Source of the DNA: Escherichia phage vB_EcoM-Sa45lw | Direction: 5' to 3' (one strand) | Length of the DNA stretch: 64,000 nt | Sequence record: MK977694.1 | In this document: positions 8,115 to 62,235 of the stretch, piece by piece | How positions within the stretch are numbered: position 1 is the first letter of the stretch | Layout: every line of letters begins with the position of its first letter | Translations under genes and position numbers: made by a program | The notes under the pieces: model-generated | What the model was told of the DNA's origin: nothing | The model's input: the letters and a program-made list of their open reading frames with translations, nothing else | Databases searched by the model: none

Positions 8115-8129
8115 TCTTTGACGATTTAA

Positions 8130-8158
8130 GGGACCTTCGGGTCCCTTTAGTTGTTTTT
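8130..8158 (+). terminator. Intrinsic terminator after gene 23
   Basis: GGGACC-TTCG-GGTCCC hairpin followed by TTTAGTTGTTTTT. Confidence 0.6.
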
Positions 8159-8162
8159 ATGG

Positions 8163-8170
8163 TATAAATA
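8163..8170 (+). promoter_or_regulatory. T4-type late promoter upstream of gene 24
   Basis: TATAAATA 28 bp upstream of the gene 24 ATG. Confidence 0.55.
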
Positions 8171-8197
8171 AATCATATAAACTGAAAGGAAAGCGCA

Positions 8198-12915: not shown

Positions 12916-12928
12916 AATATTTCCTCAG

Positions 12929-12936
12929 TATAAATA
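12929..12936 (+). promoter_or_regulatory. T4-type late promoter upstream of uvsW
   Basis: TATAAATA 30 bp upstream of the uvsW ATG in the inh/uvsW divergent intergenic region. Confidence 0.5.
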
Positions 12937-12965
12937 TAGATATATTTATTACATGGTATTTAGAC

Positions 12966-23430: not shown

Positions 23431-23484
23431 TCCTCATGTTATGTCAGTAAGACTACTATAACACAACACGAGGGACTTGTAAAC
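23431..23484 (-). promoter_or_regulatory. Early promoter plus SD; copy 1 of an exact 54-bp direct repeat
   Basis: Minus strand reads GTTTAC, 18-bp spacer, TGT-TATAGT extended -10, then GAGGA. Identical 54 bp occur at 39225-39278. Confidence 0.6.
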
Positions 23485-25541: not shown

Positions 25542-25544
25542 GAT

Positions 25545-27638
25545 TTATCCTTGAACGAACTTGTAAGGCATGTTTGTAATATCTATGCAAGACGCAATAA
25601 TTCCAAGAGATGATTCTACTTTCTGTTTAATATTTGATGAAACAAATGATGCAAAGTCAACTCTGTCTTCTATTTCAATATCACCTGTCATTGCAACCAA
25701 TTCACCAGTTTCCATTAAATGGTCTCCATCATAGATTACCGATTCGGTGAGCTCTTCCGTGGTCATAACTTCAGCTTGAATGAGTTTTGTATTATTAGAT
25801 GTTGTTCCGTCATTATTAGAAGCATCAGTTATTTTATTAACCTTGACCATCAATCCGCGTGGTAGAATAACTTCAGCTTCTGTTGCTATTCCGAGACTTC
25901 CTGGATATACAACATTAACTTTATGAGCTCCATCAATTGCCCATCCTATTTGAACTTTAACATATTCAGGATTTTCTTTATACGCTCTTATTTCGTTTGG
26001 ATTAATAGTTATTCCTTCTTCATTTTTATCAACTGTTAATTCGTTACGAGCTTCTGGTTCTAAAAGACCAATACCAGCATGTGTGATTCCAAAACGTCCA
26101 AAAATGATAGGAGTTAAAGAAGTAGATACAAAATTTCTGAAGTAGAACACTTTATTTTTAACTAACGCTTCATATATAGGAGCAGTCATACTTTGAGCAC
26201 GATAAACTGTAATGCCTTCTGGTATACGGTCACCATTTTCAAAAGCTGAATCTAAGTTATTTATAGCAGATTCAATTTCTTTTTCACTCATTACATCGTA
26301 TCGTTCTGGATTGTAACGACCTAAAAGAAGATTATTGATGTCAGTATATCCTGAACCGCAATATTCTCTAATGCCACGCTTTTGTGATGGAGTATATTTA
26401 GAACCATCGCGGGCAATAGTAATATCAATCATTGGACCAGCACCAATTCCAGAAAAACTGTAAATCATTCGTTTGAGGAATTTAGTTTTTGCTGCGTTCC
26501 AGGAATTTTTAGTTATTTCTTCCCAGACTTCATCTGGTTGTCCTTTACGATTTTTATTATGATTAGCAAGCCATTTATCTTTATAATCTTCAAAGAATTG
26601 ATTTACAGCTGCTGCGTATTTCTCTAAACATTTTATTGAAGTAGTTGGTTCATTTTTAATTGCATTAAAAATTACTTCTTTAATTTTTTCTGAAACTTCA
26701 CCGACTTGACTCATTGGAAAGAATTTATAATCATAGTGAAGTTCATCTGCCGTTCCTTCAGCAATAATTTTTGCTGCCTTTGTTTTAGAAGCTAATGAAT
26801 TAATTCCAATTTTCATTTCTTCTGCTTCGGGAATTAAAGGTGCAGTAGCTGGTTTATTAAAATTAGCTGCTGTAGATTCATACTTCTGGAATAATTCACT
26901 TTCAAATCTAGAAGATTCCAATGACTGACTTTGTGCAATTGCTCTACGGGAAATTTTAACTTTAACGATTACGGCTTGGTCAGAACGTTTATCATTTTCT
27001 TGTGCAATAGATGCAGCAATTGCCTCATTTTTGGTTACTTGAGCTCCAGTATCTTTATTGATATAAACATCACCGACCTTCGATTCAACTTTAGTAAAAA
27101 GCTCGGTGCTAATTTCTGGAACTCCTGGAATGTCTTCTAGTGATACATTTTTACGATGTATAAGAATATATGCATACTTTTTATCGTAATCCCAGAGTTC
27201 CTTAAGAAGGACGTATCTGCCACCTGAACGACTGCGGATGAGTCTATCAGCAATAAGTTGAATTTGTCGAGCTTGACCGGCGGTTTTAGACTTAAGAATA
27301 CGAAGCATGCAGGCATCAATTTTATATTGACGCATTGTTTGCATTGCAACAGTAAAAACTGAATTGATATAATTAATCGGGCTTGGACCAAGACCTTTTA
27401 ATTTAGCAATTGAACCTTTAGCAGTTAATGTAAAAGGAACAATGTGCATCATTTTATCGCCCATCTTTAAATCACGATTAGTATCACCTCCAGATGTATA
27501 GGTACATAAACGAAAGCCTGGTTGTTCAATTGCATCATCAACATGAACTGAAAAAATTTGTGGTATTTTCTTCTTTGGATTTAAGTTTGTAATCGGAAGA
27601 GTAGTATCTTCGTCAAATAATTCTGTAATAAGTTCCAT
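25545..27638 (-). CDS. alt: Alt, virion-packaged ADP-ribosyltransferase
   Basis: 697 aa; N-terminus MELITELFDEDTTLPITNL matches recalled T4 Alt; R (VYRAQ), STS and EAEVILPRG motifs. Confidence 0.93.
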   Translation of the reverse strand: MELITELFDEDTTLPITNLNPKKKIPQIFSVHVDDAIEQPGFRLCTYTSGGDTNRDLKMGDKMMHIVPFTLTAKGSIAKLKGLGPSPINYINSVFTVAMQTMRQYKIDACMLRILKSKTAGQARQIQLIADRLIRSRSGGRYVLLKELWDYDKKYAYILIHRKNVSLEDIPGVPEISTELFTKVESKVGDVYINKDTGAQVTKNEAIAASIAQENDKRSDQAVIVKVKISRRAIAQSQSLESSRFESELFQKYESTAANFNKPATAPLIPEAEEMKIGINSLASKTKAAKIIAEGTADELHYDYKFFPMSQVGEVSEKIKEVIFNAIKNEPTTSIKCLEKYAAAVNQFFEDYKDKWLANHNKNRKGQPDEVWEEITKNSWNAAKTKFLKRMIYSFSGIGAGPMIDITIARDGSKYTPSQKRGIREYCGSGYTDINNLLLGRYNPERYDVMSEKEIESAINNLDSAFENGDRIPEGITVYRAQSMTAPIYEALVKNKVFYFRNFVSTSLTPIIFGRFGITHAGIGLLEPEARNELTVDKNEEGITINPNEIRAYKENPEYVKVQIGWAIDGAHKVNVVYPGSLGIATEAEVILPRGLMVKVNKITDASNNDGTTSNNTKLIQAEVMTTEELTESVIYDGDHLMETGELVAMTGDIEIEDRVDFASFVSSNIKQKVESSLGIIASCIDITNMPYKFVQG

Positions 27639-35164: not shown

Positions 35165-35397
35165 AGTACGCCATACACCCTTTGTGCTTCAACTAATCCA
35201 TCAAAATCCAATTTGAGATGTGTTATTTGGTCACCATCACCTGGATTCACAATTACTAATACTGAACGAGGAGTTTCTGTAATAACACGAACCGATGTTT
35301 CTGGAAATCGTTCAGAAACCTTATTTACCAATTCTTGAGCAAATAGTTTAACTTTTTCTTGGAATTCTTTAACAGTAATTGGTTTTTCGCTTAGCAT
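35161..35397 (-). CDS. Hypothetical protein (cd.2 position)
   Basis: 78-aa ORF, ATGA-coupled. Confidence 0.65.
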   Translation of the reverse strand: MLSEKPITVKEFQEKVKLFAQELVNKVSERFPETSVRVITETPRSVLVIVNPGDGDQITHLKLDFDGLVEAQRVYGVL

Positions 35398-35918
35398 GTT
35401 GATCCTAGCTCCTTACTTTCAACGTTTTTAACTAATTTGACAGAAACTAATTCAGCATCTTGGGTAATCATTACCGGGCCTTCTTCATACTCTTCAAGAT
35501 ATTCTAGAGCTTTGTTTTTAGCTTCTTCCTTCGTATCAGTTTGAGCATAGATATAGAACATACAACCAGTAATACCTACTACTTTCCACTTAATTTCTTT
35601 ATCAGTTTTAATTTCAAATTTACTGACAGAATCATCTTTTTGAACTTCTTCGAAAAAAGAATATTCTAACATATAAGTAATTGAAAATAACGGGCTAACT
35701 TTATAGGATTCGCCCATTACATCAACAGCTTTATACCAACAGTCATCAATTTCGCGTTTAATGCTAATAACATTTTTCGCAGGATCTATTTTTACTTTAA
35801 ATGAATTTTCCCCAATAAACTGGGCAATTCGTTTATTAGCCCCGCAAGTTTCATTAAAAATATCTTTATACCCAGTTTTAAAGCGATAAACCTTATCTTC
35901 TTCAAACCATTCGCTCAT
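35391..35918 (-). CDS. Hypothetical protein (cd.3 position)
   Basis: 175-aa ORF preceded by an early promoter. Confidence 0.7.
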   Translation of the reverse strand: MSEWFEEDKVYRFKTGYKDIFNETCGANKRIAQFIGENSFKVKIDPAKNVISIKREIDDCWYKAVDVMGESYKVSPLFSITYMLEYSFFEEVQKDDSVSKFEIKTDKEIKWKVVGITGCMFYIYAQTDTKEEAKNKALEYLEEYEEGPVMITQDAELVSVKLVKNVESKELGSTC

Positions 35919-36646: not shown

Positions 36647-37846
<1,200 letters not shown>

Positions 37847-37850
<4 letters not shown>

Positions 37851-39281: not shown

Positions 39282-40869
<1,588 letters not shown>

Positions 40870-40896
40870 AATAAAATGGGCCTTGCGGCCCACTCC

Positions 40897-42075
40897 TTAA
40901 AAGTATTTTTTAAAACTCATCATAACTTTATCATCAACATCATTATCAATCTGTGCAACAAGATAAGATGACAGTTCTACTTCTTGCGGCGCGGATTGAA
41001 CATTATCAGAATTAAGGTATTCACGAATCCAAGGATATGGATGTTTAACCGGAGCATCGGTAATCGGGCATGGAAGACCACACTGTTTCATACGAGATAC
41101 AGTTAAGTAATCAATAAAGCTCCACATGCTATTTGTATTTAATCCAGGAACATCGCCATCTTTAAATAAATGAACTGCCCAATCTTTTTCTTGGCGGTTA
41201 ACTTCCATGAAAATATCAACTGCTTCTTGTTCACACTCTTTGGCAATTTTAACCCATTCATCACCATCAGTGCCAAGTTGAAGTTGACGAATAATATATT
41301 GGGTGCCTTTAAGGTGAAGCTGCTCATCACGTGCAATGAACTTCATAATCTTGGCATTACCTTCCATGATTTCCATGTTCTTATGGAAGTTAAAGGTACA
41401 TGCGAAAGATACATAAAAACGAATAGCTTCCAATGCGTTGATTACATGCAGACAAAGGTAAAGAGAACGCATTAGTTCGTATTTGCATTCTTCTACATGC
41501 ATAAGGCTATTTGAATATGCGTCCAAATCATATTCATTCTCTGAAAAACACCTAAAAATTTCTTTTGCGTTTTCCCATTCACGAGTTTTCTCAATAACAT
41601 CATCATAATAACGACCAATAGATTCAGCACGTTTCATGATAGCTTTATCTAATACAATCTCATCAAATACCTTTGACGGATCAGTATAAAGATTTCGCAT
41701 AATATGAGTGTATGAACGACTGTGAATAGTTTCACTAAAAGTCCATGTAGCAACCCATGTATCAAGGCTTGGATCTGAAATTAATGACATAAGTACAGCA
41801 GACGGTGCACGACCCTGAATGCTATCTAAAAGTGATTGATACTTCAGGTTATTAGTAAAAATATCTTGCTGATACTGGGGAAGCTTGTTAAATTGTGCAG
41901 CATCCATCATCAAGTTTACTTCTTCAGGACGCCAGAAAAATGACAATTGCTTTTCGGTTAAATCTTCAAAAACTTTATGACGTTGAATATCATAACGCGC
42001 AATACCAAGACCTGAACCGAAGAACATAGGTTCTTTTAAAACATCAACTGGATTTGTATTAAAAACTGTGCTCAT
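40897..42075 (-). CDS. nrdB: Ribonucleotide reductase small subunit, uninterrupted
   Basis: 392 aa contiguous ORF with N-terminus MSTVFNTNPVDVL; no intron-like break. Confidence 0.95.
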   Translation of the reverse strand: MSTVFNTNPVDVLKEPMFFGSGLGIARYDIQRHKVFEDLTEKQLSFFWRPEEVNLMMDAAQFNKLPQYQQDIFTNNLKYQSLLDSIQGRAPSAVLMSLISDPSLDTWVATWTFSETIHSRSYTHIMRNLYTDPSKVFDEIVLDKAIMKRAESIGRYYDDVIEKTREWENAKEIFRCFSENEYDLDAYSNSLMHVEECKYELMRSLYLCLHVINALEAIRFYVSFACTFNFHKNMEIMEGNAKIMKFIARDEQLHLKGTQYIIRQLQLGTDGDEWVKIAKECEQEAVDIFMEVNRQEKDWAVHLFKDGDVPGLNTNSMWSFIDYLTVSRMKQCGLPCPITDAPVKHPYPWIREYLNSDNVQSAPQEVELSSYLVAQIDNDVDDKVMMSFKKYF

Positions 42076-42126
42076 AAATTTTCCGCTTAGTTAATAGATA
42101 GTGACTCGTCCGTGAGTCAAATTATA

Positions 42127-44391
42127 TCATAATTTACAGGATGAACAATCTTCAGCTTTTGGAGTTTCTATTTCATAATCATCAGTACCAGAACCGTCAC
42201 GGGTATTATGATAATAGAAATTTTTTCCGCCAAAATACCAAAAATACAAAAGGTCATCAATCATTATTGACATTGGAACCTTTCCTTTTGGAAAAATCTG
42301 TGGGTCATAATATGTATTCGCTGAAGCTGATTGACATACCCATTTCAGCATAATAGCTACCTGCGTAAGATAAGGTTTATTACCTTTCTTAGCTAATTTC
42401 CATGTATAATCATATAGGTCTATGTTATGTTCAATATTGGGCACGACTTGATTAAAGGAACCCTCTTTTGATTCTTTAACAGAGACTGGTCCACGTGGAG
42501 GCTCGATACCGTTTGTACTGTTAGAAACTTGGGAAGATGACTCACATGGCATAAGTGCTGATAGTGTGCTATTACGGATGCCAAAGAGCTTAAGGTCTTC
42601 CCGCAGCGACGACCAGTCACAAACGTATTTTGGAGCTGCGATTTGGTCAATCTTTTTATTGTACCAGTCGATAGGTAATTCGCCTCGAGACCAACGAGTG
42701 TCTGAATAATATTCACAAGGTCCTTTTTCTTTGGCGAGTTTAATGGATGCTTTAATGAGTCCATACTGTAATCTCTCAAATAGTTCATGTGTTAAATCGT
42801 TAGCATCTTCATAAGAAGCAAAGTTACTTGCCAACCAAGCTGCATAGTTAGTAACACCTACACCGAGGTTACGACGCTTTTTAGCTTTTTCTGCTTCAGG
42901 AACTGGATATCCTTGGTAATCCAAAAGATTATCAAGAGCACGAACCTGGACTTCTGCCAATTCATTAATTTTATCTTGGTCTTGCCAGTCAAAATTATCT
43001 AATACGAATGCAGAGAGAGTACACAATCCAATTTCAGCATCAGGACTATTCACATCATTTGTTGGAATAGCAATTTCACAGCACAAGTTACTCTGACGAA
43101 TAGGTGCCTTTTCACGAATAAACGGAGTATAGTTATTCGTATTATCAATGAACTGTACATAAATCCTTGCTGTTCCTGAGCGTTCAGTCATGAGCAATTC
43201 AAATAGTTCACGAGCTTTAATACGCTTTTTACGAATATTAGGGTCTTTTTCTGCGGCTTCATACAATTCACGGAAACGGTCTTGGTCTTTAAAATAAGAA
43301 TAATAAAGCTCTCCGCCCATTTCATGGGGACTGAACAAAGTAATGTAATCGTTCTTTCCGAATCGTTCCATCATCAAATCATTCAGCTGAACACCATAAT
43401 CCATATGACGAATGCGGTTTTCTTCTACGCCTTTGTTATTTTTCAAAACAAGAAGATTTTCAACTTCCAAATGCCAAATAGGATAATAAGCAGTAGCAGC
43501 GCCGCCACGAATTCCACCCTGTGAGCATGATTTAACAGCAGTCTGAAAATGTTTCCAAAAAGGAATAACACCAGTATGGCGTACTTCACCCATGCCAATC
43601 TTAGAACCTTCAGCACGAATCATACCAACGTTAATACCAATTCCAGCACGTTTAGAGATATATTCAACAATTGAAGCGGAAGCCTTATTGATAGACTTTA
43701 ATGAATCACCTGCCTCAATAACAACGCATGAACTAAACTGCCGAGTTGGAGTACGGCAACCAGCCATAATAGGAGTTGGTAATGAAATCTGTCGAGTAGA
43801 TACCGCTTCATAAAAACGGATAACATGTTTTAATCTATCAGCAGGTTCATCTTGATGCAATGCCATTCCAATAGTCATAAATGCAAACTGTGGAGTTTCA
43901 TAAATTTGACCAGTGGTTTTATCTTTAACTAGATATTTTTCTTTTAATTGCATCGCCCCAGAATAAGTAAATTCCATATCCCGCTCGTGCTTAATTTTTG
44001 ATTCTAAAAATGTAATTTCTTCTGCTGAATATTTTGACAATAATTCAGGGTCATATTTACCTTCATTTACACAGTAAGAAATATGGTCAATAAATGAACG
44101 TGGTTCATACTGCCCATAAACATGCTTACGAAGAGCAAACATTAAACAGCGTGCAGCTACATATTGATAATCAGGTTCTTCAACCGAAATAGAATTCGCA
44201 GCGGCCTTAATGACAATAGTCTGAATATCATCAGTTGTCATTCCATCACGGAGATAAGATTTAATATTTTCATATAATTCATAAGGATCTACTGATGTTC
44301 CTTCAGCTGCCCAAGATAAAACTTTAATAATTTTTTGTGGGTCAAAGCTCTGAGAAACACCACTACTTTTGATAACATTAATTAATTGCAT
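42127..44391 (-). CDS. nrdA: Ribonucleotide reductase large subunit
   Basis: 754 aa, T4 NrdA length; N-terminal ATP-cone-like region and C-terminal Cys pair. Confidence 0.97.
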   Translation of the reverse strand: MQLINVIKSSGVSQSFDPQKIIKVLSWAAEGTSVDPYELYENIKSYLRDGMTTDDIQTIVIKAAANSISVEEPDYQYVAARCLMFALRKHVYGQYEPRSFIDHISYCVNEGKYDPELLSKYSAEEITFLESKIKHERDMEFTYSGAMQLKEKYLVKDKTTGQIYETPQFAFMTIGMALHQDEPADRLKHVIRFYEAVSTRQISLPTPIMAGCRTPTRQFSSCVVIEAGDSLKSINKASASIVEYISKRAGIGINVGMIRAEGSKIGMGEVRHTGVIPFWKHFQTAVKSCSQGGIRGGAATAYYPIWHLEVENLLVLKNNKGVEENRIRHMDYGVQLNDLMMERFGKNDYITLFSPHEMGGELYYSYFKDQDRFRELYEAAEKDPNIRKKRIKARELFELLMTERSGTARIYVQFIDNTNNYTPFIREKAPIRQSNLCCEIAIPTNDVNSPDAEIGLCTLSAFVLDNFDWQDQDKINELAEVQVRALDNLLDYQGYPVPEAEKAKKRRNLGVGVTNYAAWLASNFASYEDANDLTHELFERLQYGLIKASIKLAKEKGPCEYYSDTRWSRGELPIDWYNKKIDQIAAPKYVCDWSSLREDLKLFGIRNSTLSALMPCESSSQVSNSTNGIEPPRGPVSVKESKEGSFNQVVPNIEHNIDLYDYTWKLAKKGNKPYLTQVAIMLKWVCQSASANTYYDPQIFPKGKVPMSIMIDDLLYFWYFGGKNFYYHNTRDGSGTDDYEIETPKAEDCSSCKL

Positions 44392-44708
44392 AAGTCCTCA
44401 ACTTGAAAATCGTCTTTAAACAATCGGTTAACTATATGAGCTATTATATCACCATGACACGGCTTTGGTTTACATGTGCATCCTAGCCTCATTCCACGTA
44501 AAGGCTCTAAATGTGCTTTAGTTATTTCTCCGGATTTAATTCGACGTATAAAATCTTTTTTGAATAATTCAATGGCAGCCTCCCGGCTGCCAGCATCTTT
44601 ACCGACGTAATTTCCCCAAAATGTACCACGGTGAATATTAACATCAAAGTCGGATTTATATTTATTCACTACTCGGCATATACGGCCTGCGCGGTTGTAA
44701 GTGTTCAT
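44382..44708 (-). CDS. Hypothetical protein (nrdA.1 position)
   Basis: 108-aa ORF with Cys/His residues ([11 protein letters not shown]). Confidence 0.65.
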
Positions 44709-44937
44709 ATTGTTCTTCCGTTAAAACAGTAATATCGTAGTAACAGTCAGAAGAAGTTTTAACTGTGGAAATTTTATTATCAAAATACTCACGAGTCATT
44801 TTATGAGTATAATATTTTTTGCCATAAATGATAATAGGCTGATTTGGTCCTGGAACTTCTAACTCACTTGGATTAGGAAGTGTAAAAAGAACTACACCAG
44901 AAGTATCTTTAAATCGTAAAATCATATATCCTCGCAA
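44662..44937 (-). CDS. Hypothetical protein (nrdA.2 position)
   Basis: 91-aa ORF. Confidence 0.6.
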
Positions 44938-44945
44938 TAATAAAA

Positions 44946-45806
44946 TTACACCGCCATCTTTCCTTTAATAGGAGGATGTGATTCATAGTTGTTAAGAACA
45001 AAATTATGAGGCTTTGCAAATTGACTCAACCAAAATACCTGCGATTCTGTGTCCCATTCATCAAATTCATCTGGAAATTTTAATTGTAATTCGCATAAAT
45101 CCATAGGTTCACGACATAAAATTTCTTTACATTGTTCTACGTGATTCATATAGATATGAGTATTACCACCAGAAAATATCAAATCTCCCGGAATAAGATT
45201 ACACATCTTAGCTACAATATGAACTAACGTAGCATATGATGCAATATTAAATGGAAGACCGAGGAAAACATCTACCGAACGTTGATACCACTGAAGGTCA
45301 AGGTATCCATTACGCACATTAAACTGATAGAACATATGACAAGGCGGTAATGCCATATATTTAAGTTCAGCTGGATTCCACGCAGAAACAATTTGACGCC
45401 TATCATTTGGCAGTTTTTTAATACGATCAATAACTTCTATAATTTGATCTACACCGCCAAAATCACGCCACTGTTTTCCATAAATTGGACCAAGTTCACC
45501 GCTATGGTATCCTAAATCTTTTGCTTGATTTTCGTAATTTTCATCCCAGACTGTTTTGCCTTGAATTAATGAATCATGTTGAATTAATCGCAAATCATTG
45601 ACATTTGTGCTTCCTGATAAAAACCATATTAGCTCAGCAATGCATGCATTCCAGGCGAGCTTTTTAGTTGTTACTGCAGGAAAACCTTTGGTTAAATCCC
45701 AACGCAATTTAGTACCGAACAAAGCAATTGTTCCTGTACCCGTTCGGTCATCGGTTTCATAGCCATTTTCAAAAATGTCTTTAATTAAATCTTGGTATTG
45801 TTTCAT
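44946..45806 (-). CDS. td: Thymidylate synthase, uninterrupted
   Basis: 286 aa contiguous ORF; catalytic-site motif in [10 protein letters not shown]; no intron-like break. Confidence 0.96.
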
Positions 45807-45851
45807 TTAGTACCTTATATAAATTATAATACATTTTATGAAGCTAAATAA

Positions 45852-46199
45852 TCAATACGGTTTAGCATCAAATTTTCTCTCAATTTCAGGCGTGAAATAT
45901 AATTCTTTACCGCGTTTGGAAAAGCGACCAATAATATGATAATTATTCTCATCAAACGTGATATTACCAATATCCATAGCTTTCAACCAAATATCGATAT
46001 TTCTATCCAGCTTTATGTCAAAATTCCAATACGGAGAACTATTACCGAAAATACTACAAGCGGATTCAGTGAAACAACTGCTATAAATCTTGTCTTTAGG
46101 AACTACTAATTGATAGACACCTTTAATAAACTGAGGACCCTGCCACTTTGGCTGTTTCTCATCTTTTTCTAATAGAATAGGGTAATAATTAAAATTCAT
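45852..46199 (-). CDS. Hypothetical protein inserted between td and frd
   Basis: 115-aa ORF with no recognisable motif, flanked by short intergenic gaps. Confidence 0.65.
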   Translation of the reverse strand: MNFNYYPILLEKDEKQPKWQGPQFIKGVYQLVVPKDKIYSSCFTESACSIFGNSSPYWNFDIKLDRNIDIWLKAMDIGNITFDENNYHIIGRFSKRGKELYFTPEIERKFDAKPY

Positions 46200-46218
46200 A
46201 TTTCCGCCACGCGTTATT

Positions 46219-47177
<959 letters not shown>

Positions 47178-47230
47178 TTTTTAAAGCATTGCATAATAGA
47201 ATTCATCATTCATAAACTCAAATACAAAAA

Positions 47231-47590
47231 TTATATTATCTCCCATCGAAAAGGGTCAGGAGCATATCCGATAGAATTAATCATTTTAACTAAAGTTACC
47301 ATTCCTTTGTTAACTGCTTGTGCGATTTCATCAAAAACTTCATCGCTATCATCATAAAGGTCATTAAAAAGTTCTAACACGTTCTTCTGAACTTTTAATT
47401 TACAGCCAACAAATTCGCCTACAGTAAATTCGTTTCCGCCAACTCCAGCGTAAAACGTAATTACACCAGTTAATGGTCTTTCACTAGAACATAGGTCGTG
47501 TGATAAATTAATATAAGCCGTCCCGGGTGCAGTTTTAAGTTGGCAACGAATACTTACTCGAGCAATTCCAGCTACACGAATGTCAGACAT
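47231..47590 (-). CDS. Hypothetical protein (frd.2 position)
   Basis: 119-aa ORF. Confidence 0.65.
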   Translation of the reverse strand: MSDIRVAGIARVSIRCQLKTAPGTAYINLSHDLCSSERPLTGVITFYAGVGGNEFTVGEFVGCKLKVQKNVLELFNDLYDDSDEVFDEIAQAVNKGMVTLVKMINSIGYAPDPFRWEII

Positions 47591-47600
47591 ATTATTTTCC

Positions 47601-47843
47601 TCAAATAGACTTTTTCACAATTTTCCAATCAGCTTTAAACTGCTCGACGTCAGAATGGTAAATCCAAAATCCTGCGCTTTCTCCATCCTCATAAAGAGGG
47701 CATCCATCACATTCATCTTCCCATCCCATATCGCGTAAAAGGTGTTCAGCTTTTTCAACAAGTTCAGAATCTTTACCGATGATATTAAAATACCATTTAC
47801 CTCTAACTTCTGAATCTTTGATACTCTGACGTTGTAATCTCAT
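47601..47843 (-). CDS. Hypothetical protein (frd.3 position)
   Basis: 80-aa ORF with strong SD AAGGAGAA. Confidence 0.65.
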   Translation of the reverse strand: MRLQRQSIKDSEVRGKWYFNIIGKDSELVEKAEHLLRDMGWEDECDGCPLYEDGESAGFWIYHSDVEQFKADWKIVKKSI

Positions 47844-47853
47844 TTTATTCTCC

Positions 47854-47922
47854 TTAGCAAGCTTTAATCAAAAGATATAAACAGACCAACATAACTGCTG
47901 CCATAATATAAGGTGCGAACAT
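47854..47922 (-). CDS. Candidate 22-aa hydrophobic mini-protein; not in the supplied ORF track
   Basis: Hand translation MFAPYIMAAVMLVCLYLLIKAC; SD GGAG upstream; early promoter -10 lies 31 bp upstream of its ATG. Confidence 0.4.
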   Translation of the reverse strand: MFAPYIMAAVMLVCLYLLIKAC

Positions 47923-47952
47923 TTTCTTTTCTCCATTAGTTTTGATAGGGTA

Positions 47953-47982
47953 ATAGTATCACACTACTACCCCGTTGTAAAC
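47953..47982 (-). promoter_or_regulatory. Sigma70-type early promoter upstream of the mini-ORF and frd.3
   Basis: Minus strand GTTTAC, 18-bp spacer ending GTGTGA, TACTAT. Confidence 0.5.
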
Positions 47983-47984
47983 AA

Positions 47985-48245
47985 TTATTTTTGAATTTTA
48001 TCGAGCCACTTACCAAGCTTAATCATTTCTTTAGTAGCCTTTTCCATACTTCTGAACTTAACCAATAGAGGATAGGTATCGACACCCATAACTAAACTGG
48101 TTACAAGACTGTGTTCACCCACAAGCCATAATGAATACGTTTGAATATCGAGCCCGTAATTTCTGTCTTTATGGACCCGTACACCCATCACTTCAAATTT
48201 CTCACTAGCTTTTTCTACCGCATCCAGGAAATCATCTTTAGTCAT
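47985..48245 (-). CDS. Hypothetical protein
   Basis: ORF track starts at 48287; ATG at 48245, 1 nt after the upstream stop, gives 86 aa. Confidence 0.55.
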   Translation of the reverse strand: MTKDDFLDAVEKASEKFEVMGVRVHKDRNYGLDIQTYSLWLVGEHSLVTSLVMGVDTYPLLVKFRSMEKATKEMIKLGKWLDKIQK

Positions 48246-48246
48246 A

Positions 48247-48648
48247 TTAGGCCTTAAAAGTTTTTCGCAAAAGTTCAATGATTTCATCTACATTGTTTTC
48301 ATCAACAATGCAGTGAATTTTTGTCACGTCAGAAACCTTGTCTTCGATTTCATCTTCTTCAGAAGTCGGTTCTTTATATTCGCGGAAACAATAAAACTCT
48401 TCTTCACGAAGTTCAAAATAATCATCATCCATACCATCATCATTATAGATTTCACCATTAGCACAAATGATTTCGGTTACATAATCAAAGCCATCTAAAC
48501 TTAATATTGATTTAACTTCAAACCAACCACCATTTTCTTGAATGATGCCGACCATACTAGCATTTAATGAACTAATATCAATGAAAGATTTAATATGACG
48601 TGGATTTAACTCGTATTTTTTTTCCAACTTCCACTTTGATTTCCTCAT
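48247..48648 (-). CDS. Hypothetical acidic protein
   Basis: 133-aa ORF, very acidic C-terminal half. Confidence 0.6.
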   Translation of the reverse strand: MRKSKWKLEKKYELNPRHIKSFIDISSLNASMVGIIQENGGWFEVKSILSLDGFDYVTEIICANGEIYNDDGMDDDYFELREEEFYCFREYKEPTSEEDEIEDKVSDVTKIHCIVDENNVDEIIELLRKTFKA

Positions 48649-48680
48649 TTTAACGGGGCTATCAAATAGCCCCTTGATAA

Positions 48681-48911
48681 TTATTGTTCAATCAGTCCCA
48701 TGTAAAATTCTGCGTCTTCAGAATCCATGCCATCGCAATATTCATTAGCCATAAAGCGGGTAAGGTCTTCAAGAGGACCTTCAATGACAATAGAAAAATT
48801 GCAATAATTGGGATCATCATGAATACTTGTGATACTAAGTTCAGGATAACGATTACGAATAATCTCTTCAATATATTCAAAATCAACGATGTCAATATCA
48901 ACTTTAGCCAT
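48681..48911 (-). CDS. Hypothetical acidic protein
   Basis: ORF track starts at 48932; ATG at 48911 with SD AAGAGGAAA gives 76 aa beginning MAKVDIDIV. Confidence 0.6.
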
Positions 48912-48954
48912 ATTATTTTCCTCTTTAATCATCAGCAGTATTGCCGATAGTTGT

Positions 48955-48984
48955 ATAGTACCATAAAGCCTTATGTTTGTAAAC
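48955..48984 (-). promoter_or_regulatory. Candidate sigma70-type early promoter
   Basis: Minus strand GTTTAC, 18-bp spacer, TACTAT; no extended TG; 43 bp upstream of the 76-aa ORF start. Confidence 0.4.
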
Positions 48985-49004
48985 CGTTTTGTGAAAAAAT
49001 TTTT

Positions 49005-49034
49005 GAAATAAAAAAGGGGACCTCTAGGGTCCCC
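49005..49034 (-). terminator. Intrinsic terminator downstream of gene 32
   Basis: Minus strand GGGGACC-CTAGA-GGTCCCC followed by TTTTTTATTT. Confidence 0.55.
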
Positions 49035-49056
49035 AATTAATTAGTAATATAATCTA

Positions 49057-49965: not shown

Positions 49966-50056
49966 TTTTATTTCCTTTTTAATTTAATTAACAGTTGGTG
50001 CTATGACGATGTATGACCTCATAGCTGGTCAGTGAGATAATTATAATCTATTTATA
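49966..50056 (-). promoter_or_regulatory. Gene 32 leader: late promoter, H-type pseudoknot and AU-rich translational operator
   Basis: Minus strand TATAAATA (complement of 50049-50056); UGACC-AG-CUAUGA-GGUCA-UACAUCG-UCAUAG (complement of 50001-50031) forms two interleaved stems; then UUAAAUUAAAUUAAAAAGGAAAUAAAA before the AUG. Confidence 0.65.
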
Positions 50057-50064
50057 ATAAGCAA

Positions 50065-55300: not shown

Positions 55301-56200
55301 GATGAAACATCTAGTCATTTTTATTCTCAGCGCAATAAAGCCGGAAATATAACATTTAATATCAACGGTACAGTAACACCGATAAATGTTAATGCTTCAG
55401 GAACATTGAATGCAAATGGCGTAGCAACATTTGGTAATTCAGTCACTGCAACTGGTGAAATTATTTCTCGAAGCGCAAATGCTTTCCGTGCTATTAACGG
55501 AAATTACGGTTTCATTGTTCGCAATGATGGATCAGTAACGAATTTTATGCTTACTGCATCGGGTGATCAGACTGGTGGATTTAATGGATTACGCCCATTA
55601 GCTATTAATAATGCATCTGGCCAAGTAACGATTGGTGAAAGCTTAATCATTGCCAAAGGTGCTACTATAAATTCAGGTGGTTTGACTGTTAACTCGAGAA
55701 TTCGTTCTCAAGGTACTAAAACATCTGACTTATATACACGTGCGCCAACATCTGATACTGTAGGATTCTGGTCAATTGATATTAACGATTCAGCTACTTA
55801 TAACCAGTTCCCAGGTTATTTTAAAATGGTTGAAAAAACTAATGAAGTGACTGGTCTTCCATATTTAGAACGTGGCGAAGAAGTTAAATCTCCTGGTACA
55901 CTGACTCAGTTTGGTAACACACTTGATTCGCTTTACCAAGATTGGATTACTTATCCAACAACGCCAGAAGCGCGTACCACTCGCTGGACACGTACATGGC
56001 AGAAAACCAAAAATTCTTGGTCAAGTTTTGTTCAGGTATTTGATGGAGGTAACCCTCCTCAACCGTCTGATATCGGTGCTTTACCATCTGATAATGCTAC
56101 AATGGGTAATCTTACTATTCGTGATTTCTTACGAATTGGTAATGTTCGCATTATTCCTGACCCAGTGAATAAAACTGTTAAATTTGAATGGGTTGAATAA
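52331..56200 (+). CDS. 34: Long tail fibre proximal subunit gp34
   Basis: 1289 aa, T4 gp34 length; internal tandem repeats. Confidence 0.95.
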   Translation: MAEIKRKFRAEDGLDAGGDKIINVALADRAVGTDGVNVDYLIQENTVQQYDPTRGYLKDFVIIYDNRFWAAINDIPKPAGAFNSVRWRALRTDANWTTVSSGPYQLKSGESISVNTAAGNDITFTLPSSPIDGDTIVLQDIGGKPGVNQVLITAPVQSIVNFRGQQVRSVLMTHPKSQIVLIFSNRLWQMYVADYSREAVVVTPASLYQAQSNDFIVRRFTSASAINIKLPRFANHGDIINFVDLDKLNPLYHTIVTTYDETTSVQEVGTHSIEGRTSIDGFLMFDDNEKLWRLFDGDSKARLRIITTNSNIRPNEEVMVFGANNGTTQTIELQLPTDISIGDTVKISMNYMRKGQTVKIKAAGEDKIASSVQLLQFPKRSEYPPETKWVTVQELVFNGETNYVPVLQLAYIEDSDGKYWVVQQNVPTVERVDSLNNSTRARLGVIALATQAQANADLENSPQKELAITPETLANRTATETRRGIARIATTAQVNQDTTFSFADDLIITPKKLNERTATETRRGVAEIATQQETNTGTDDTTIITPKKLQARQGSESLSGIVTFVSTAGATPASSRELNGTNVYNKNTNNLVVSPKALDQYKATPTQQGAVILAVESEVIAGQSQEGWANAVVTPETLHKKTSTDGRIGLIEIATQSEVNTGTDYTRAVTPKTLNDRRATESLSGIAEIATQVEFDAGVDDTRISTPLKIKTRFNSTDRTSVVALSGLVESGTLWDHYTLNILEANETQRGTLRVATQVEAAAGKLDNVLITPKKLLGTKSTESQEGVIKVATQSETVAGTSANTAVSPKNLKWIVQSEPTWAATTAIRGFVKTSSGSITFVGNDTVGSTQDLELYEKNSYAVSPYELNRVLANYLPLKAKAADSNLLDGLDSSQFIRRDIAQTVNGSLTLTQQTNLSAPLVSSSTATFGGSVSANSTLTISNTGTATRLIFEKGPQTGTNPAQTMTVRVWGNQFSGELDTTRSTVFEVSDETSSHFYSQRNKAGNITFNINGTVTPINVNASGTLNANGVATFGNSVTATGEIISRSANAFRAINGNYGFIVRNDGSVTNFMLTASGDQTGGFNGLRPLAINNASGQVTIGESLIIAKGATINSGGLTVNSRIRSQGTKTSDLYTRAPTSDTVGFWSIDINDSATYNQFPGYFKMVEKTNEVTGLPYLERGEEVKSPGTLTQFGNTLDSLYQDWITYPTTPEARTTRWTRTWQKTKNSWSSFVQVFDGGNPPQPSDIGALPSDNATMGNLTIRDFLRIGNVRIIPDPVNKTVKFEWVE
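53700..54780 (+). repeat. Degenerate tandem repeats (about 40 aa, 120 nt period) inside gene 34
   Basis: Repeated units ...TPKKL...(R/T)ATE(T/S)(R/Q)RG(V/I)A(E/R)IAT(Q/T)xE...; ACTGCTACAGAAACTCGTAG recurs at 53761 and 53881. Confidence 0.55.
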
Positions 56201-58051: not shown

Positions 58052-61000
58052 ATGGCTACTTTAAAACAAATACAATTTAAAAGAAGCAAAACGGCAGGTC
58101 AACGTCCAGCTGCTTCAGTATTAGCCGAAGGTGAATTGGCTATAAACTTAAAAGACCGTTTACTTTTTACTAAAGATGACCAGGGAAATATTATTGATTT
58201 AGGTTTTGCTAAAGGCGGTAGTATTGACGGGAATGTTATTCATAAAGGCAATTATAACCAAACTGGCGATTATACTTTAAACGGTACATTCACCCAGACT
58301 GGTAATTTTAATTTAACTGGTATTGCTCGAGTAACTCGTGATATTATTGCTGCTGGGCAGATTATGACTGAAGGCGGAGAACTTATTACAAAAAGTTCAG
58401 GTACATCACATGTTCGTTTTCATGATTCAGCTGACCGTGAACGTGGAATCATTTTTTCTCCTGCTAATGATGGATTAACTACACAAGTAATTAACATCAG
58501 AGTTCAAGATTACAAAGCTGGTTCAGAAAGCACTTTCGCTTTTAATGGAAATGGTTTGTTTTCTTCACCAGAAGTTTTTGGGTGGAAATCTGTATCAACT
58601 CCGGTAATTTATACCAATAAAGTTATCACCAATAAAAAAGTTAAAGATGATTATGACATCTATTCGATGGCAGATAATGTTCCATTATCTGAAAGCACTA
58701 CTGCTATTAATCATCTTCGTGTTATGCGTAATGCAGTTGGTTCTGGTATTTTCCATGAAGTTAAAGATAATGATGGAATAACATGGTATAGTGGAGATGG
58801 ATTAGACGCTTATCTTTGGTCATTTACTTGGAGCGGCGGAATTAAATCAAGTCACTCAATTTCCATCGGTTTAACACCCGGACCTAAGGATTACTCAATA
58901 TTAGGACCGTCTAGTATCGCTTTAGGAGATAATGATACTGGATTTAAATGGCATCAAGACGGATATTATTTCAGTGTTAATAATGGCACAAAAACGTTTT
59001 TATTTAGCCCTAGCGAAACAACTAGCCTAAGAAAATTTGTAGCTGGATATTCTACTAATGGAACCGATTTAACTACTCCTCCGACTGAAAACTATGCTCT
59101 TGCTACTGTCGTGACATATCATGACAATAACGCGTTTGGAGATGGTCAGACTCTTTTGGGGTATTATCAAGGCGGTAGATATCACCATTACTTTCGCGGA
59201 AGAGGAACAACTAATATTAATACTGCTGGAGGGTTATTAGTTACTCCTGGTAATATTGATGTTATTGGCGGTTCTGTTAATATCGATGGTAGAAATAATG
59301 CTTCTACAGCTCTGTTTAAAGGTAACACAACAGGTAGTAGTTCTGTGGATAACATGACAATTTCTGTGTGGGGTAATACATTTACTAATCCTAGCGAAGG
59401 TAATCGCAAAAATGTCATGGAAATTTCCGATGCAACTAGCTGGATGAGCTATATTCAAAGACTTACTACTGGTGAAGTAGAAATGAACGTTAACGGTTCA
59501 TTTGAATCATCTGGTGTTACTGCTGGAAATAGAGGAGTTCACACAACAGGCGAAATTTCATCTGGAGCAGTGAATGCTCTTCGCATTTGGAATGCAGATT
59601 ATGGAGCCATTTTTAGACGTTCAGAAGGTAGTCTTCATATTATTCCAACTGCTTACGGTGAAGGCAAAAATGGTGATATCGGTCCACTTCGTCCATTTAG
59701 TATTGCTTTGGATACTGGTAAGGTTGTTATTCCAGATTTAGAATCAAGTTATAACACGTTTGCTGCAAATGGCTACATTAAATTTGCTGGTCACGGCGCG
59801 GGTGCAGGTGGTTATGATATTCAGTATTCACAAGCTGCTCCTATTTTCCAAGAAATCGATGATGCTGCTGTAAGCAAATATTATCCTATTGTTAAACAGA
59901 AGTTTTTAAACGGTAAAGCTGTCTGGTCTTTAGGTACTGAAATTAATTCAGGTACATTTGTTTTACATCATCTAAAAGAAGATGGTTCACAAGGCCATAC
60001 ATCAAGATTTAATGCTGATGGTACAGTTAATTTCCCCGATAATGTTCAAGTCGGCGGCGGTGAAGCTACTATTGCTCGTAATGGTAATATCTTCTCTGAT
60101 ATTTGGAAAACATTTACTTCTGCCGGAGATACTACAAATATTCGCGATGCGATAGCTACTCGTGTTGCCAAAGAAGGCGATACGATGACTGGCAAATTAA
60201 TCGTTAGAAGAGGCTCTGACGCTATTAACATTGCTGCCGATGAAAATGATTCTTGCTATTTACTTGGAACATCGGGTGGAGCGAATTCATGGTACATCGG
60301 TAAAGGAGGAGCAGATGACACTGCTTCATTTTATAATTTCAAAACTACCGCAGGAATTACTCTTAATAGTGTTGGTGATATTGATTTTAACGTCAAAAAT
60401 CAAGCTACTGCAGCTTCATTAAATTTTTATCGTTTATATTTAAATGGAAGACAATGGACAGCTACACAAGGTCACGGCTATAATAATCAATGGCAAACAG
60501 AAGCCCCATTCTTCGTTGACTTTGGTGAATCTGTTCCGAAAGATAGTTATATGCCTATAATTAAAGGAAGAAGCCAAATCATTAACGAAGGATATGCCAC
60601 AAAGGCAGATTTTGGTATTATTCGATTGGGTGGAAATGCTACTTGGGGAAATGCAGTAATTCGTGTTGGTTCTGCGGAAAGCGGAGATAGCAGCCATCCT
60701 AATGCAATATTTGTGTTTCAGGCTAATGGTGATTTTAAAGCTCCGGCTGGCCTTCGTGCTGGTGTTAACTTGGGCGTCGGCACAATTCCAGTATGGGGTG
60801 GAGCATCTATCGCCATCGGGGATGATGATACCGGTTTAGTTCATGGCGGCGATGGTCGAATTAATATGTATGCTAACGCGCAGCATATAGCATCATGGGG
60901 CACGATGTATCAATCTCATCCAGGCCTTTGGGATTCAAATGGAGCTTTTTGGACAGAAGTTGGCAAAGCAATTATTTCTCATGGCCATTTAGTTCAGGCG

Positions 61001-61378
61001 AATGACAGCTATTCAACGTATGTCCGCGATGTTTATGTCCGCTCTGATATTCGTGTTAAAAAGGACCTAGTTAAATTTGAAAATGCTTCTGAGAAGCTTT
61101 CAAAAATTAATGGTTACACTTATATGCAGAAGCGAGGCCTAGATGAAGAAGGTAATCAGAAATGGGAACCAAACGCTGGGTTAATTGCTCAAGAAGTTCA
61201 AGCTATTTTACCTGAATTGGTTGAAGGCGATCAGGATAGTGAAGCTTTACTTCGTTTGAACTATAACGGTGTAATTGGTTTAAATACAGCTGCAATCAAT
61301 GAGCATACTGCAGAAATTGCAGAACTTAAGTCAGAGATTGAAGAGCTTAAAAAATTAGTTAAATCATTGTTAAAATAA
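58052..61378 (+). CDS. 37: Long tail fibre distal subunit gp37 with C-terminal intramolecular chaperone domain
   Basis: 1108 aa; conserved N-terminus [21 protein letters not shown]; C-terminal coiled-coil segment resembling autocleaving chaperone domains of other phage fibres. Confidence 0.92.
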
Positions 61379-61383
61379 AATGA

Positions 61384-61397
61384 GGGGCTTCGGCCCC
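61384..61397 (+). other. Stable UUCG-tetraloop hairpin abutting the gene 38 SD
   Basis: GGGGC-TTCG-GCCCC immediately followed by TTGGAGG and the gene 38 ATG; no U-run. Confidence 0.45.
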
Positions 61398-61409
61398 TTG
61401 GAGGTTTAT

Positions 61410-62204
61410 ATGGCAGTTGAAGGACCGTGGGTAGGATGGTCTGCGAGGGTACAAACTGGAGACCCTTGGATGGGTGGTGCCGCGCAGAGATTGAGAATGG
61501 GAATTCCGTTTTGGATGAGTAATATGATAGGTCGATCTGTTGAAGTAATTCACACCCTTGGAGCGGACCATAACTTTAATGGTCAATGGTTCCGAGATAG
61601 ATGTTTTGAGGCAGGTAGTGCACCTATAGTGTTTAATATTACCGGAAATTTGGTATCATATTCTAGAGACGTTCCTTTATTCTTCATGTACGGAGATACA
61701 CCTAATGAATATGTTCAGTTGAATATTGGTGGCGGCGTCCATATGTGGGGTAGAGGTGGACAAGGTGGATGGACTCATTCCGGCGGAGATGGTAATGGTC
61801 AACAAGGTGGTCATTGTATTCAAAATGACATCGGTGGACGATTAAGAATTAATAACGGTGGAGTAATTTGTGGTGGAGGTGGAGGTGGAGGTGGTATCGC
61901 TTATCGTCCTCACTCTGGTGCAAATTGGCAAGATATTGGTGGTGGTGGAGGAAGACCATTTGGCCCAGGAGGAGGCGGAGGTTATTCCGGCGGCGCAGCT
62001 TCTTATGATGGCCCAGGAGGTGGTTATAATTATGGTAATGCTCACTCTGGCCAGGGTGGTGATGCTGGCGCAAATGGACAAAATGCCTGGTATGATGGCG
62101 GTAAAGTTCTAAAAGTTGGAGCTGGTGGCGCTGCCGGATATGCTGTTATAGGATCAGCTCCAACATGGCAAAATGTTGGAGTAATATATGGTCCAAGGGT
62201 ATAA
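61410..62204 (+). CDS. 38: gp38 receptor-binding adhesin with glycine-rich motifs (T2-type)
   Basis: ORF track starts at 61380; ATG at 61410 follows GGAGG and gives 264 aa; poly-Gly blocks separated by short variable segments. Confidence 0.88.
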
Positions 62205-62235
62205 TTTTGAATAAATATCCTTAAAAGGAGGGTCT

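What the first reader, a model, noticed from the sequence alone, without database searches (positions are those of the whole stretch)
40897..45806. Intron-free td and nrdB and apparent absence of seg homing endonuclease genes
td (286 aa) and nrdB (392 aa) are continuous ORFs, whereas T4 carries group I introns in both. The 23/24 and inh/uvsW junctions are only 83 and 50 bp long, too short to hold the segD and segE genes that I recall at these junctions in T4. The interval where T4 has segG (between frd.3 and 32) holds three small acidic ORFs instead. This marks the phage as a T-even relative distinct from T4 and predicts it would be a recipient, not a donor, in intron or seg homing during co-infection with T4.
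Basis: partly seen in the sequence, partly recalled or inferred. Interest (0 to 1): 0.4.

Follow-up and report, generated by a model that had tools for sequence, protein, structure and literature searches.

The report
T2-like phage lacking T4's homing elements
This stretch of a T4-like phage genome has uninterrupted td and nrdB genes and none of the six selfish endonuclease elements that T4 carries here, which is the ordinary, already documented state of most T4 relatives, such as phage T2.

Summary
The core observation holds. td (44946-45806, 286 aa) and nrdB (40897-42075, 392 aa) are continuous and align end to end with the spliced T4 genes. The T4 introns (1017 and 598 nt) are precisely absent. 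The 23/24 and inh/uvsW spacers are 83 and 50 bp, so segD and segE are absent.

One detail is wrong. T4 segG lies between genes 32 and 59, not between frd.3 and 32. That junction is also empty here (99 bp). The "three small acidic ORFs" are the conserved frd.1, frd.2 and frd.3 genes, which T4 also has.

No homologue of any of the 15 T4 homing endonucleases is found anywhere in the 64 kb.

The window is a Tequatrovirus about 98% identical to RB51, wV7 and Sf23. Its layout at all six sites matches phage T2, the classical recipient in T4 x T2 crosses. Each element occurs in only about 20-200 of roughly 500 sequenced close relatives, and the reviews already call T4 the oddity.

The recipient prediction is reasonable for I-TevI, MobE, SegE and SegG. 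It is not reasonable for SegD, which is published as not initiating homing of its own gene. Verdict: ordinary and already known.

The parts
44946..45806 (-). td (thymidylate synthase), 286 aa, uninterrupted. The site of the T4 intron lies between 45258 and 45257.
   Evidence: ORF list. Pfam PF00303 matched over 1-266/266, E 4e-94. T4 has 1017 nt more exactly at this point. About 89% aa identity to spliced T4 Td; protein alignment.
45240..45284 (-). Unoccupied I-TevI homing site in td (-27 to +18 around the insertion site). CAACG cleavage motif kept. Differs from T4 at 7 positions; the encoded peptide is unchanged. The downstream half is identical to T2.
   Evidence: Three-way alignment of window, T2 and T4. 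Protein identical across this region. Cleavage at -23/-25 and the 38-bp site are taken from PMC2988022.
40897..42075 (-). nrdB (ribonucleotide reductase small subunit), 392 aa, uninterrupted. The site of the T4 intron lies between 41400 and 41399.
   Evidence: PF00268. T4 has 598 nt more here. Within 40 nt either side of the insertion site the window differs from T2 at 1 position. T2 nrdB is also 1179 nt.
42076..42126 (.). nrdA/nrdB spacer, 51 bp: the empty mobE + nrdB.1 site. Contains a short inverted repeat (GACTC...GAGTC).
   Evidence: blastn gap: window 42075/42131 against T4 139719/140420. T4 annotation. Sequence. T2 has the same 51-bp spacer. The relative JLBYU31 has a 243-aa homing endonuclease gene here.
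8115..8197 (.). Gene 23/24 spacer, 83 bp: the empty segD site. Has a hairpin followed by a T run, then TATAAATA.
   Evidence: T4 segD lies at 106561-107232 between genes 23 and 24. T2 also has an 83-bp spacer.
12916..12965 (.). inh/uvsW spacer, 50 bp: the empty segE site.
   Evidence: T4 segE lies at 112057-112674. T2 also has a 50-bp spacer. uvsW nt 1-224 are identical to T2, whereas T4 differs at about 39 positions in nt 1-139.
49966..50064 (.). Gene 32/59 spacer, 99 bp: the true empty segG site. On the minus strand it carries a TATAAATA late-promoter-like motif upstream of gene 32.
   Evidence: blastn gap: window 50028/50064 against T4 147918/148542. T4 SegG is annotated between genes 32 and 59 (PMC2988022 Table 1). 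Sequence. T2 has the same 99-bp spacer.
48933..49056 (.). frd.3/32 interval, 124 bp non-coding. It holds a G+C hairpin with a T run (terminator-like) and an early-promoter-like stretch.
   Evidence: Sequence. It aligns collinearly with the 145-bp frd.3/32 spacer of T4.
47601..48932 (-). frd.1 (47601-47843), frd.2 (48247-48648) and frd.3 (48681-48932): most likely the 'three small acidic ORFs'. An extra 86-100-aa ORF (47985-48287) lies between frd.1 and frd.2.
   Evidence: Pfam DUF5417, FRD2, Phage_FRD3. pI 4.94, 4.46, 4.05. 92-95% identical to T4 frd.1-frd.3 DNA.
40459..40893 (-). denA (endonuclease II), the only GIY-YIG-domain protein found in the window. It is a host-DNA nuclease, not a homing endonuclease.
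   Evidence: tblastn: 99.3% identity to T4 DenA. Pfam GIY-YIG, E 5e-6. It served as the positive control for the searches.

Best explanation
The window is gene 18 to arn of a T2/RB51-type Tequatrovirus. All six places where T4 carries a homing element in this interval are unoccupied: segD, segE, the nrdB intron with I-TevIII, mobE, the td intron with I-TevI, and segG. The td and nrdB genes are therefore plain continuous genes. This is the common state of T-even phages, and T4 is the exception.

Mechanistic consequence (inferred, not shown): in a cell co-infected with T4, three T4 enzymes would cut this DNA and one would nick it. I-TevI would cut in td, SegE in uvsW and SegG in gene 32; MobE would nick nrdB. 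Repair copied from T4 DNA would then install the td intron, mobE with the nrdB intron, segE and segG, together with flanking T4 markers. This is localized marker exclusion, as happens to T2. SegD is not expected to do this.
For: Shown here:
- Collinear blastn against T4 has clean gaps of 790, 636, 601, 701, 1017 and 624 bp at exactly the annotated T4 elements.
- td and nrdB are continuous and match full-length Pfam models.
- tblastn with all 15 T4 homing endonucleases finds nothing better than E = 0.02, while the DenA control scores 99%.
- Seg-GIY-YIG and Mob-HNH profile searches of all six reading frames find nothing. The best hit is E = 0.2, to denA. The same profiles recover segD, segE, I-TevI, segG and mobE in T4 at E 1e-30 to 1e-64.
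- Window ORFs with no T4 counterpart have no nuclease domains.
- T2 has identical spacer lengths at all six sites and is collinear with the window.
- Target regions are T2-type.

Frequency among about 460-515 close relatives (records covering at least 80% of each query): td intron 197, nrdB intron 118, mobE+nrdB.1 20, segD 53, segE 159, segG 142.

Literature:
- T4 is 'an oddity' with 15 homing endonucleases (PMC2988022).
- T2 has 1, RB51 has 4 and RB26 has none (PMC2993671 Table 5).
- T2 is the recipient for MobE/I-TevIII, I-TevI and SegG (PMC2790892; PMC2988022).
Against: - Cleavability of this phage's sites was not tested. Upstream of the insertion site, its I-TevI site differs from T2 at four positions (-22, -19, -7, -4). 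The G at -19 is found in neither T4 nor T2.
- The exact SegE and SegG cleavage sequences could not be retrieved, so only whole-gene comparisons with T2 were possible.
- The rest of the genome is unseen and may carry other homing endonucleases.
- The Rfam negatives carry no weight. Rfam also missed T4's own td and nrdB introns.
Confidence: 0.88

Rival explanations
1. Secondary loss. An ancestor carried some of these elements and lost them precisely, for example by recombination with an empty allele from a co-infecting relative. On this view the empty sites are derived rather than never invaded.
For: The elements are patchily distributed among phages that are 96-98% identical. JLBYU31 has a homing endonuclease gene at nrdA/nrdB, and ECO4 and Isf-Pm2 have split td genes. 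td and nrdB contain local mosaic patches that differ from both T4 and T2, which shows past allele exchange around these sites.
Against: No remnant of any element is present. The junctions have the same lengths as in T2 and are collinear with it. Loss and non-invasion cannot be told apart from one sequence. The practical consequence, an empty site, is the same either way.
Confidence: 0.25
2. Resistant empty alleles. The sites are empty, but the target sequences have drifted so that one or more T4 endonucleases no longer cut. The phage would then be neither donor nor recipient at those loci.
For: The I-TevI site differs from T4 at 7 of 45 positions and from T2 at 4, including a G at -19 seen in neither. 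td as a whole is a diverged allele, with about 100 differences from both T4 and T2, against 36 between T4 and T2.
Against: The CAACG cleavage motif and its spacing are kept. The half of the site downstream of the insertion site equals that of T2, a proven recipient. All changes are synonymous third-position changes. From general knowledge rather than any test here, I-TevI is known to tolerate many substitutions. The nrdB Trp-codon region and the uvsW 5' end are identical to T2.
Confidence: 0.12
3. Artefact. The continuous genes would result from an assembly or editing step that removed introns, for example assembly guided by an intron-less reference.
For: None found.
Against: Hundreds of independent records share the same intron-less, endonuclease-free arrangement. 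499 records cover at least 80% of 40000-47000. The six empty sites are spread over 42 kb.
Confidence: 0.01

Closest known systems
Escherichia phage T2 (AP018813), the classical intron-less, endonuclease-poor partner in T4 x T2 marker-exclusion crosses
   Same: Identical layout at all six sites: 83-, 50-, 51- and 99-bp spacers, td 861 nt, nrdB 1179 nt. It has the same 115-aa ORF cassette between td and frd and the same two alt paralogues. It is collinear with the window at 93.5-96.6% identity over the stretch compared, window 627-53030.
   Different: The td allele differs at 99 of 861 nt, with a different C-terminal patch. The nrdB hypervariable patch differs. The window has extra ORFs (35391-35918; 46797-47590) that T2 lacks.
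Enterobacteria phage RB51 / RB68 and Escherichia phage wV7 (Tequatrovirus)
   Same: The nearest records: 98.5-98.7% identity over 40000-47000 and 97.8% over 1-25000, each in one piece. Gene content matches, including the RB32ORF229c-like ORF and the extra ORFs between frd and frd.1.
   Different: None is identical to the window. RB51 is reported to carry 4 homing endonuclease genes elsewhere in its genome (PMC2993671 Table 5). The corresponding parts of this phage are outside the window.
Escherichia phage T4 (NC_000866)
   Same: Same gene order from gene 18 to arn, at 92-97% nucleotide identity in most shared genes.
   Different: In this interval T4 carries segD, segE, the nrdB intron with the I-TevIII relic, nrdB.1 with mobE, the td intron with I-TevI, and segG. 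T4 lacks the td/frd cassette and several small ORFs. Its uvsW and nrdB 5' ends are heavily polymorphic relative to the window and T2.

Membership tests
Intron-containing td / nrdB alleles (T4 type, group I intron with I-TevI or I-TevIII) | An intervening sequence interrupts the coding sequence at the known insertion site | tested here: not met
   td and nrdB are single ORFs that align end to end with the spliced T4 genes. The 1017 and 598 nt of T4 are absent.
Intron-containing td / nrdB alleles (T4 type, group I intron with I-TevI or I-TevIII) | Intron-encoded endonuclease ORF (I-TevI GIY-YIG; I-TevIII HNH) | tested here: not met
   tblastn best hits are E = 0.33 (I-TevI) and 0.32 (I-TevIII), both at unrelated places.
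Intron-containing td / nrdB alleles (T4 type, group I intron with I-TevI or I-TevIII) | Group I ribozyme fold detectable by covariance model | tested here: inconclusive
   Rfam gives no hit in the window. It also gives none on T4's own td/nrdB region, so this test has no power for introns that carry an ORF.
Free-standing Seg (GIY-YIG) homing endonuclease genes | ORF with an N-terminal GIY-YIG domain inserted between conserved genes (23/24, inh/uvsW, 32/59) | tested here: not met
   The spacers are 83, 50 and 99 bp. The Seg profile finds nothing in six frames; its best hit is E = 0.2, to denA. The T4 control recovers segD, segE, I-TevI and segG. tblastn is negative.
Free-standing Mob (HNH) homing endonuclease genes | HNH ORF between nrdA and nrdB (mobE or hef type) | tested here: not met
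   The spacer is 51 bp. The Mob profile's best hit is E = 1.8, while the T4 control finds mobE at 3e-64.
Tequatrovirus (T-even) genome, T2/RB51 type | Collinear gene order with more than 90% nucleotide identity to type members | tested here: met
Homing recipient allele | Lacks the element but has flanking homology to the donor | tested here: met
   The flanks are mostly 92-97% identical to T4 on both sides of every empty site. The exception is nrdB exon 1, at 82%.
Homing recipient allele | Target sequence is cleaved by the donor's endonuclease | not testable with these tools
   Sequence comparison only. CAACG is kept and the T2-type sequence is shared at td, nrdB and the uvsW 5' region. The G at -19 of the I-TevI site is unique to this allele.
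Homing recipient allele | Element gained in progeny of a mixed infection | not testable with these tools
   This requires phage crosses. Published for T2 with I-TevI, MobE/I-TevIII and SegG (PMC2790892, PMC2988022). Reported negative for SegD (title cited in PMC10448857).

The most novel reading that the evidence does not exclude
The td allele of this phage may be a naturally I-TevI-resistant intron-less allele. It has a G at -19 that neither T4 nor T2 has, its own bases at -22 and -4, and a replaced C-terminal patch. If so, this lineage would escape td-intron invasion and the associated marker exclusion without carrying the intron.
Probability: 0.1. Interest if true: 0.3.

Novelty: already known. 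Interest (0 to 1): 0.07.

Why it matters
It matters little beyond correct annotation. The result places the phage in the T2/RB51-like group of T-even phages that carry few homing endonucleases. It also tells anyone planning crosses or engineering that td, nrdB, uvsW and gene 32 are probably open to T4-driven gene conversion. The sporadic distribution of these elements, T4's exceptional load of them, and the recipient role of T2 have been described since the 1990s-2000s and are covered in reviews (PMC2988022, PMC2993671).

Tried and rejected
- Rfam scans for group I introns gave no hits. I reject them as evidence, because the same scan on T4's own td/nrdB region also found nothing. The large ORF inside the introns probably defeats the model.
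- The best tblastn hit was segF at 26862-27197, E = 0.023 and 25% identity. It lies inside an alt paralogue with an ADP-ribosyltransferase domain. With 17 queries I treat it as chance.
- The ORFs absent from T4 were checked as possible novel homing endonucleases: 35391-35918, 37548-37850, 45852-46199, 46797-47177, 47231-47590 and 47985-48287. None has a nuclease domain in Pfam, and all fall in PHROGs of unknown function.
- I looked for the exact source phage. No record is identical; the best are about 98-98.7%.
- I looked for the exact SegE, SegG and SegD cleavage sequences. The primary papers (Kadyrov 1997, Liu 2003, Sokolov 2018) are not in the searchable library. Only reviews and a reference title were available.
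Full report
**What the window is.** Megablast of 40000-47000 and of 1-25000 against GenBank phage records gives hundreds of full-length Tequatrovirus matches. The nearest are wV7, O157 typing phage 7, RB51, RB68 and Sf23, at about 98-98.7% identity. No record is identical. Against T4 (NC_000866, fetched) the window is collinear from gene 18 to arn (T4 98,385-161,985). Most shared genes are 92-97% identical.

**Checking the observation.** td is one ORF at 44946-45806 (minus strand, 286 aa). nrdB is one ORF at 40897-42075 (minus strand, 392 aa). td matches the whole Pfam thymidylate synthase model (1-266/266, E 4e-94), and nrdB matches the RNR small-chain model.

The blastn map against T4 has six clean gaps, each coinciding with an annotated T4 element:

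| Window junction | T4 coordinates | Extra in T4 | Element |
|---|---|---|---|
| 8125/8186 | 106521/107311 | 790 bp | segD |
| 12952/12972 | 112044/112680 | 636 bp | segE |
| 41399/41402 | 138457/139058 | 601 bp | nrdB intron with the I-TevIII relic |
| 42075/42131 | 139719/140420 | 701 bp | nrdB.1 + mobE |
| 45257/45258 | 143546/144564 | 1017 bp | td intron with I-TevI |
| 50028/50064 | 147918/148542 | 624 bp | segG |

The spacers in the window are 83 bp (23/24), 50 bp (inh/uvsW), 51 bp (nrdA/nrdB) and 99 bp (32/59).

T4 segG lies between genes 32 and 59 (Table 1 of PMC2988022). It is not between frd.3 and 32. In the window the frd.3/32 interval is 124 bp of non-coding DNA. The three small acidic ORFs next to gene 32 are frd.1, frd.2 and frd.3 (Pfam DUF5417, FRD2, Phage_FRD3; pI 4.9, 4.5, 4.1). 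T4 has them too, so they replace nothing. The conclusion that segG is absent still holds, because the real site (32/59) is empty.

**Is any homing endonuclease present anywhere in the 64 kb?**
- tblastn with all 15 T4 homing endonucleases plus NrdB.1 found nothing better than E = 0.02. That weak segF match lies inside an alt paralogue. The DenA control scored 99% identity.
- I built profile HMMs from the T4 Seg/I-Tev GIY-YIG proteins and from the Mob HNH proteins and searched all 887 stop-to-stop segments of 30 aa or more. The best hits were E = 0.2 (denA, a distant GIY-YIG nuclease) and E = 1.8.
- The same profiles recovered segD, segE, I-TevI, segG and mobE from the homologous T4 interval at E 1e-30 to 1e-64.
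- The ORFs in stretches that do not align to T4 have no nuclease domains in Pfam and fall in PHROGs of unknown function.
- Rfam found no group I intron. This carries no weight, because Rfam also failed on T4's own td/nrdB region. The absence of introns rests on ORF continuity and on the alignments.

**Comparison with T2.** The T2 record (AP018813) has the same arrangement at every one of the six sites: 83-, 50-, 51- and 99-bp spacers, td of 861 nt and nrdB of 1179 nt. It is collinear with the window across all of them.

At the enzyme target regions the window carries T2-type sequence:
- The td I-TevI site keeps the CAACG cleavage motif at -27 to -23.
- The td site is identical to T2 from -3 through +28, spanning the insertion site. 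All differences from T4 are synonymous.
- Upstream of the insertion site the window differs from T2 at -22, -19, -7 and -4. The G at -19 is in neither T4 nor T2.
- The nrdB stretch encoding the conserved Trp, where the MobE-dependent nick was mapped in T2 (PMC2790892), is identical to T2. [quoted passage not shown]
- uvsW nt 1-224 are identical to T2, whereas T4 differs at about 39 positions in nt 1-139.
- nrdB nt 39-141 show the same pattern, and so does a small cluster in gene 32 at nt 52-66.

**How common is this state?** Records covering at least 80% of each T4 element were: td intron 197, nrdB intron 118, nrdB.1+mobE 20, segD 53, segE 159 and segG 142. There are about 460-515 records at Tequatrovirus-level similarity to the window, so each element is a minority state.

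The literature says the same:
- Table 5 of PMC2993671 lists T4 15, T6 11, RB3 8, RB51 4, T2 1 and RB26 none.
- PMC10448857 also notes T2 as a relative that carries few homing endonucleases.

**Mechanism and interpretation.** Shown: the six sites are empty, and the flanks are homologous to T4. Inferred from established T4 x T2 work:
- T4 I-TevI would cut the td site, and SegE and SegG would cut in uvsW and gene 32. MobE would nick nrdB.
- Double-strand-break repair off T4 DNA would then copy in the elements and flanking T4 markers (PMC2988022; PMC2790892).
- The nrdB intron would move only through MobE, because T4 I-TevIII is defective (PMC2790892).
- SegD is an exception. [quoted passage not shown]
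- 'Not a donor' applies only to these loci. The rest of the genome is unseen, and RB51 has four homing endonuclease genes elsewhere.

**Rivals.**
- Secondary loss rather than never invaded cannot be resolved from one sequence, and the consequence is the same.
- Resistant target variants are possible, mainly for td, but are disfavoured by the conserved cleavage motif and the T2-like sequence.
- An assembly artefact is implausible, given hundreds of independent records with the same layout.

**Verdict.** The finding describes the normal condition of a T2/RB51-like phage. It is already known and of low interest.

Noticed in passing
window 45798-46225 (ORF 45852-46199, minus strand): A 416-bp cassette with a 115-aa ORF of unknown function (phrog_1928) sits exactly where the frd stop and td start overlap (ATGA) in T4. 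It is flanked by a 12-nt direct repeat, TT(G/A)TTTCATTTA, that duplicates that junction. It is also present in T2 and RB51, whose record notes 'flanked by 9 bp repeat', and is absent from T4.
   Followed up: partly
window 45001-45118 (td nt 689-806): The C-terminal part of td (about residues 230-268) is replaced by a sequence unlike both T4 and T2, while the rest of the protein is nearly identical. This is a local mosaic patch about 140-250 nt downstream of the intron insertion site.
   Followed up: partly
window 41479-41583 (nrdB nt ~493-597): [quoted passage not shown] This accounts for 392 aa here against 388 aa in T4.
   Followed up: partly
window 12966-13104 (uvsW nt 1-139) and 41935-42037 (nrdB nt 39-141): These are dense clusters of T4-specific substitutions, about 39 and about 30 positions. 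Here the window and T2 are identical or nearly identical to each other. The clusters lie right next to the segE and mobE insertion points, as expected for target-site divergence in the genome that carries the endonuclease.
   Followed up: partly
window 23484-27638: Two full-length alt-like ADP-ribosyltransferase genes lie in tandem (685 and 697 aa; Pfam ADPrib_exo_Tox), as in T2. T4 has one alt gene plus the alt.-1/alt.-2 relic.
   Followed up: partly
window 35391-35918 (minus strand): A 175-aa ORF between cd.2 and cd.3 is absent from both T4 and T2. It has no Pfam hit and falls in phrog_3710 (unknown function).
   Followed up: partly
L007 (Escherichia phage JLBYU31) 2076-2807: This relative, 96.8% identical, carries a 243-aa putative homing endonuclease exactly at the nrdA/nrdB junction, where the window has 51 bp. 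Different endonuclease genes therefore use the same junction.
   Followed up: no
window 48946-49018: A 73-bp stretch of the frd.3/32 spacer matches three other T4 intergenic regions (T4 55346-55417 at 96% identity, 163635-163707, 70658-70720). Read on the minus strand it looks like a T4 early promoter (GTTTAC ... TACTAT) just after a terminator-like hairpin downstream of gene 32.
   Followed up: no
L003 7900-15200 (T4 td/nrdB region): A note on the tool: Rfam at gathering threshold does not detect T4's own td and nrdB group I introns, so Rfam negatives cannot be used to rule out phage introns that carry an ORF.
   Followed up: yes
window 58218-62211: The distal part of gene 37 and the ORF after it at the gene 38 position (274 aa) do not align to T4 DNA, apart from one 86-bp match at 74% identity. 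The receptor-binding tip of the long tail fibre is therefore of a different type from T4.
   Followed up: no
window 46797-47590, 47985-48287 and 37548-37850: Small ORFs absent from T4: RB51ncORF236c-like, a DUF7247 protein, RB51ncORF239c-like and RB32ORF217c-like. All are of unknown function.
   Followed up: partly
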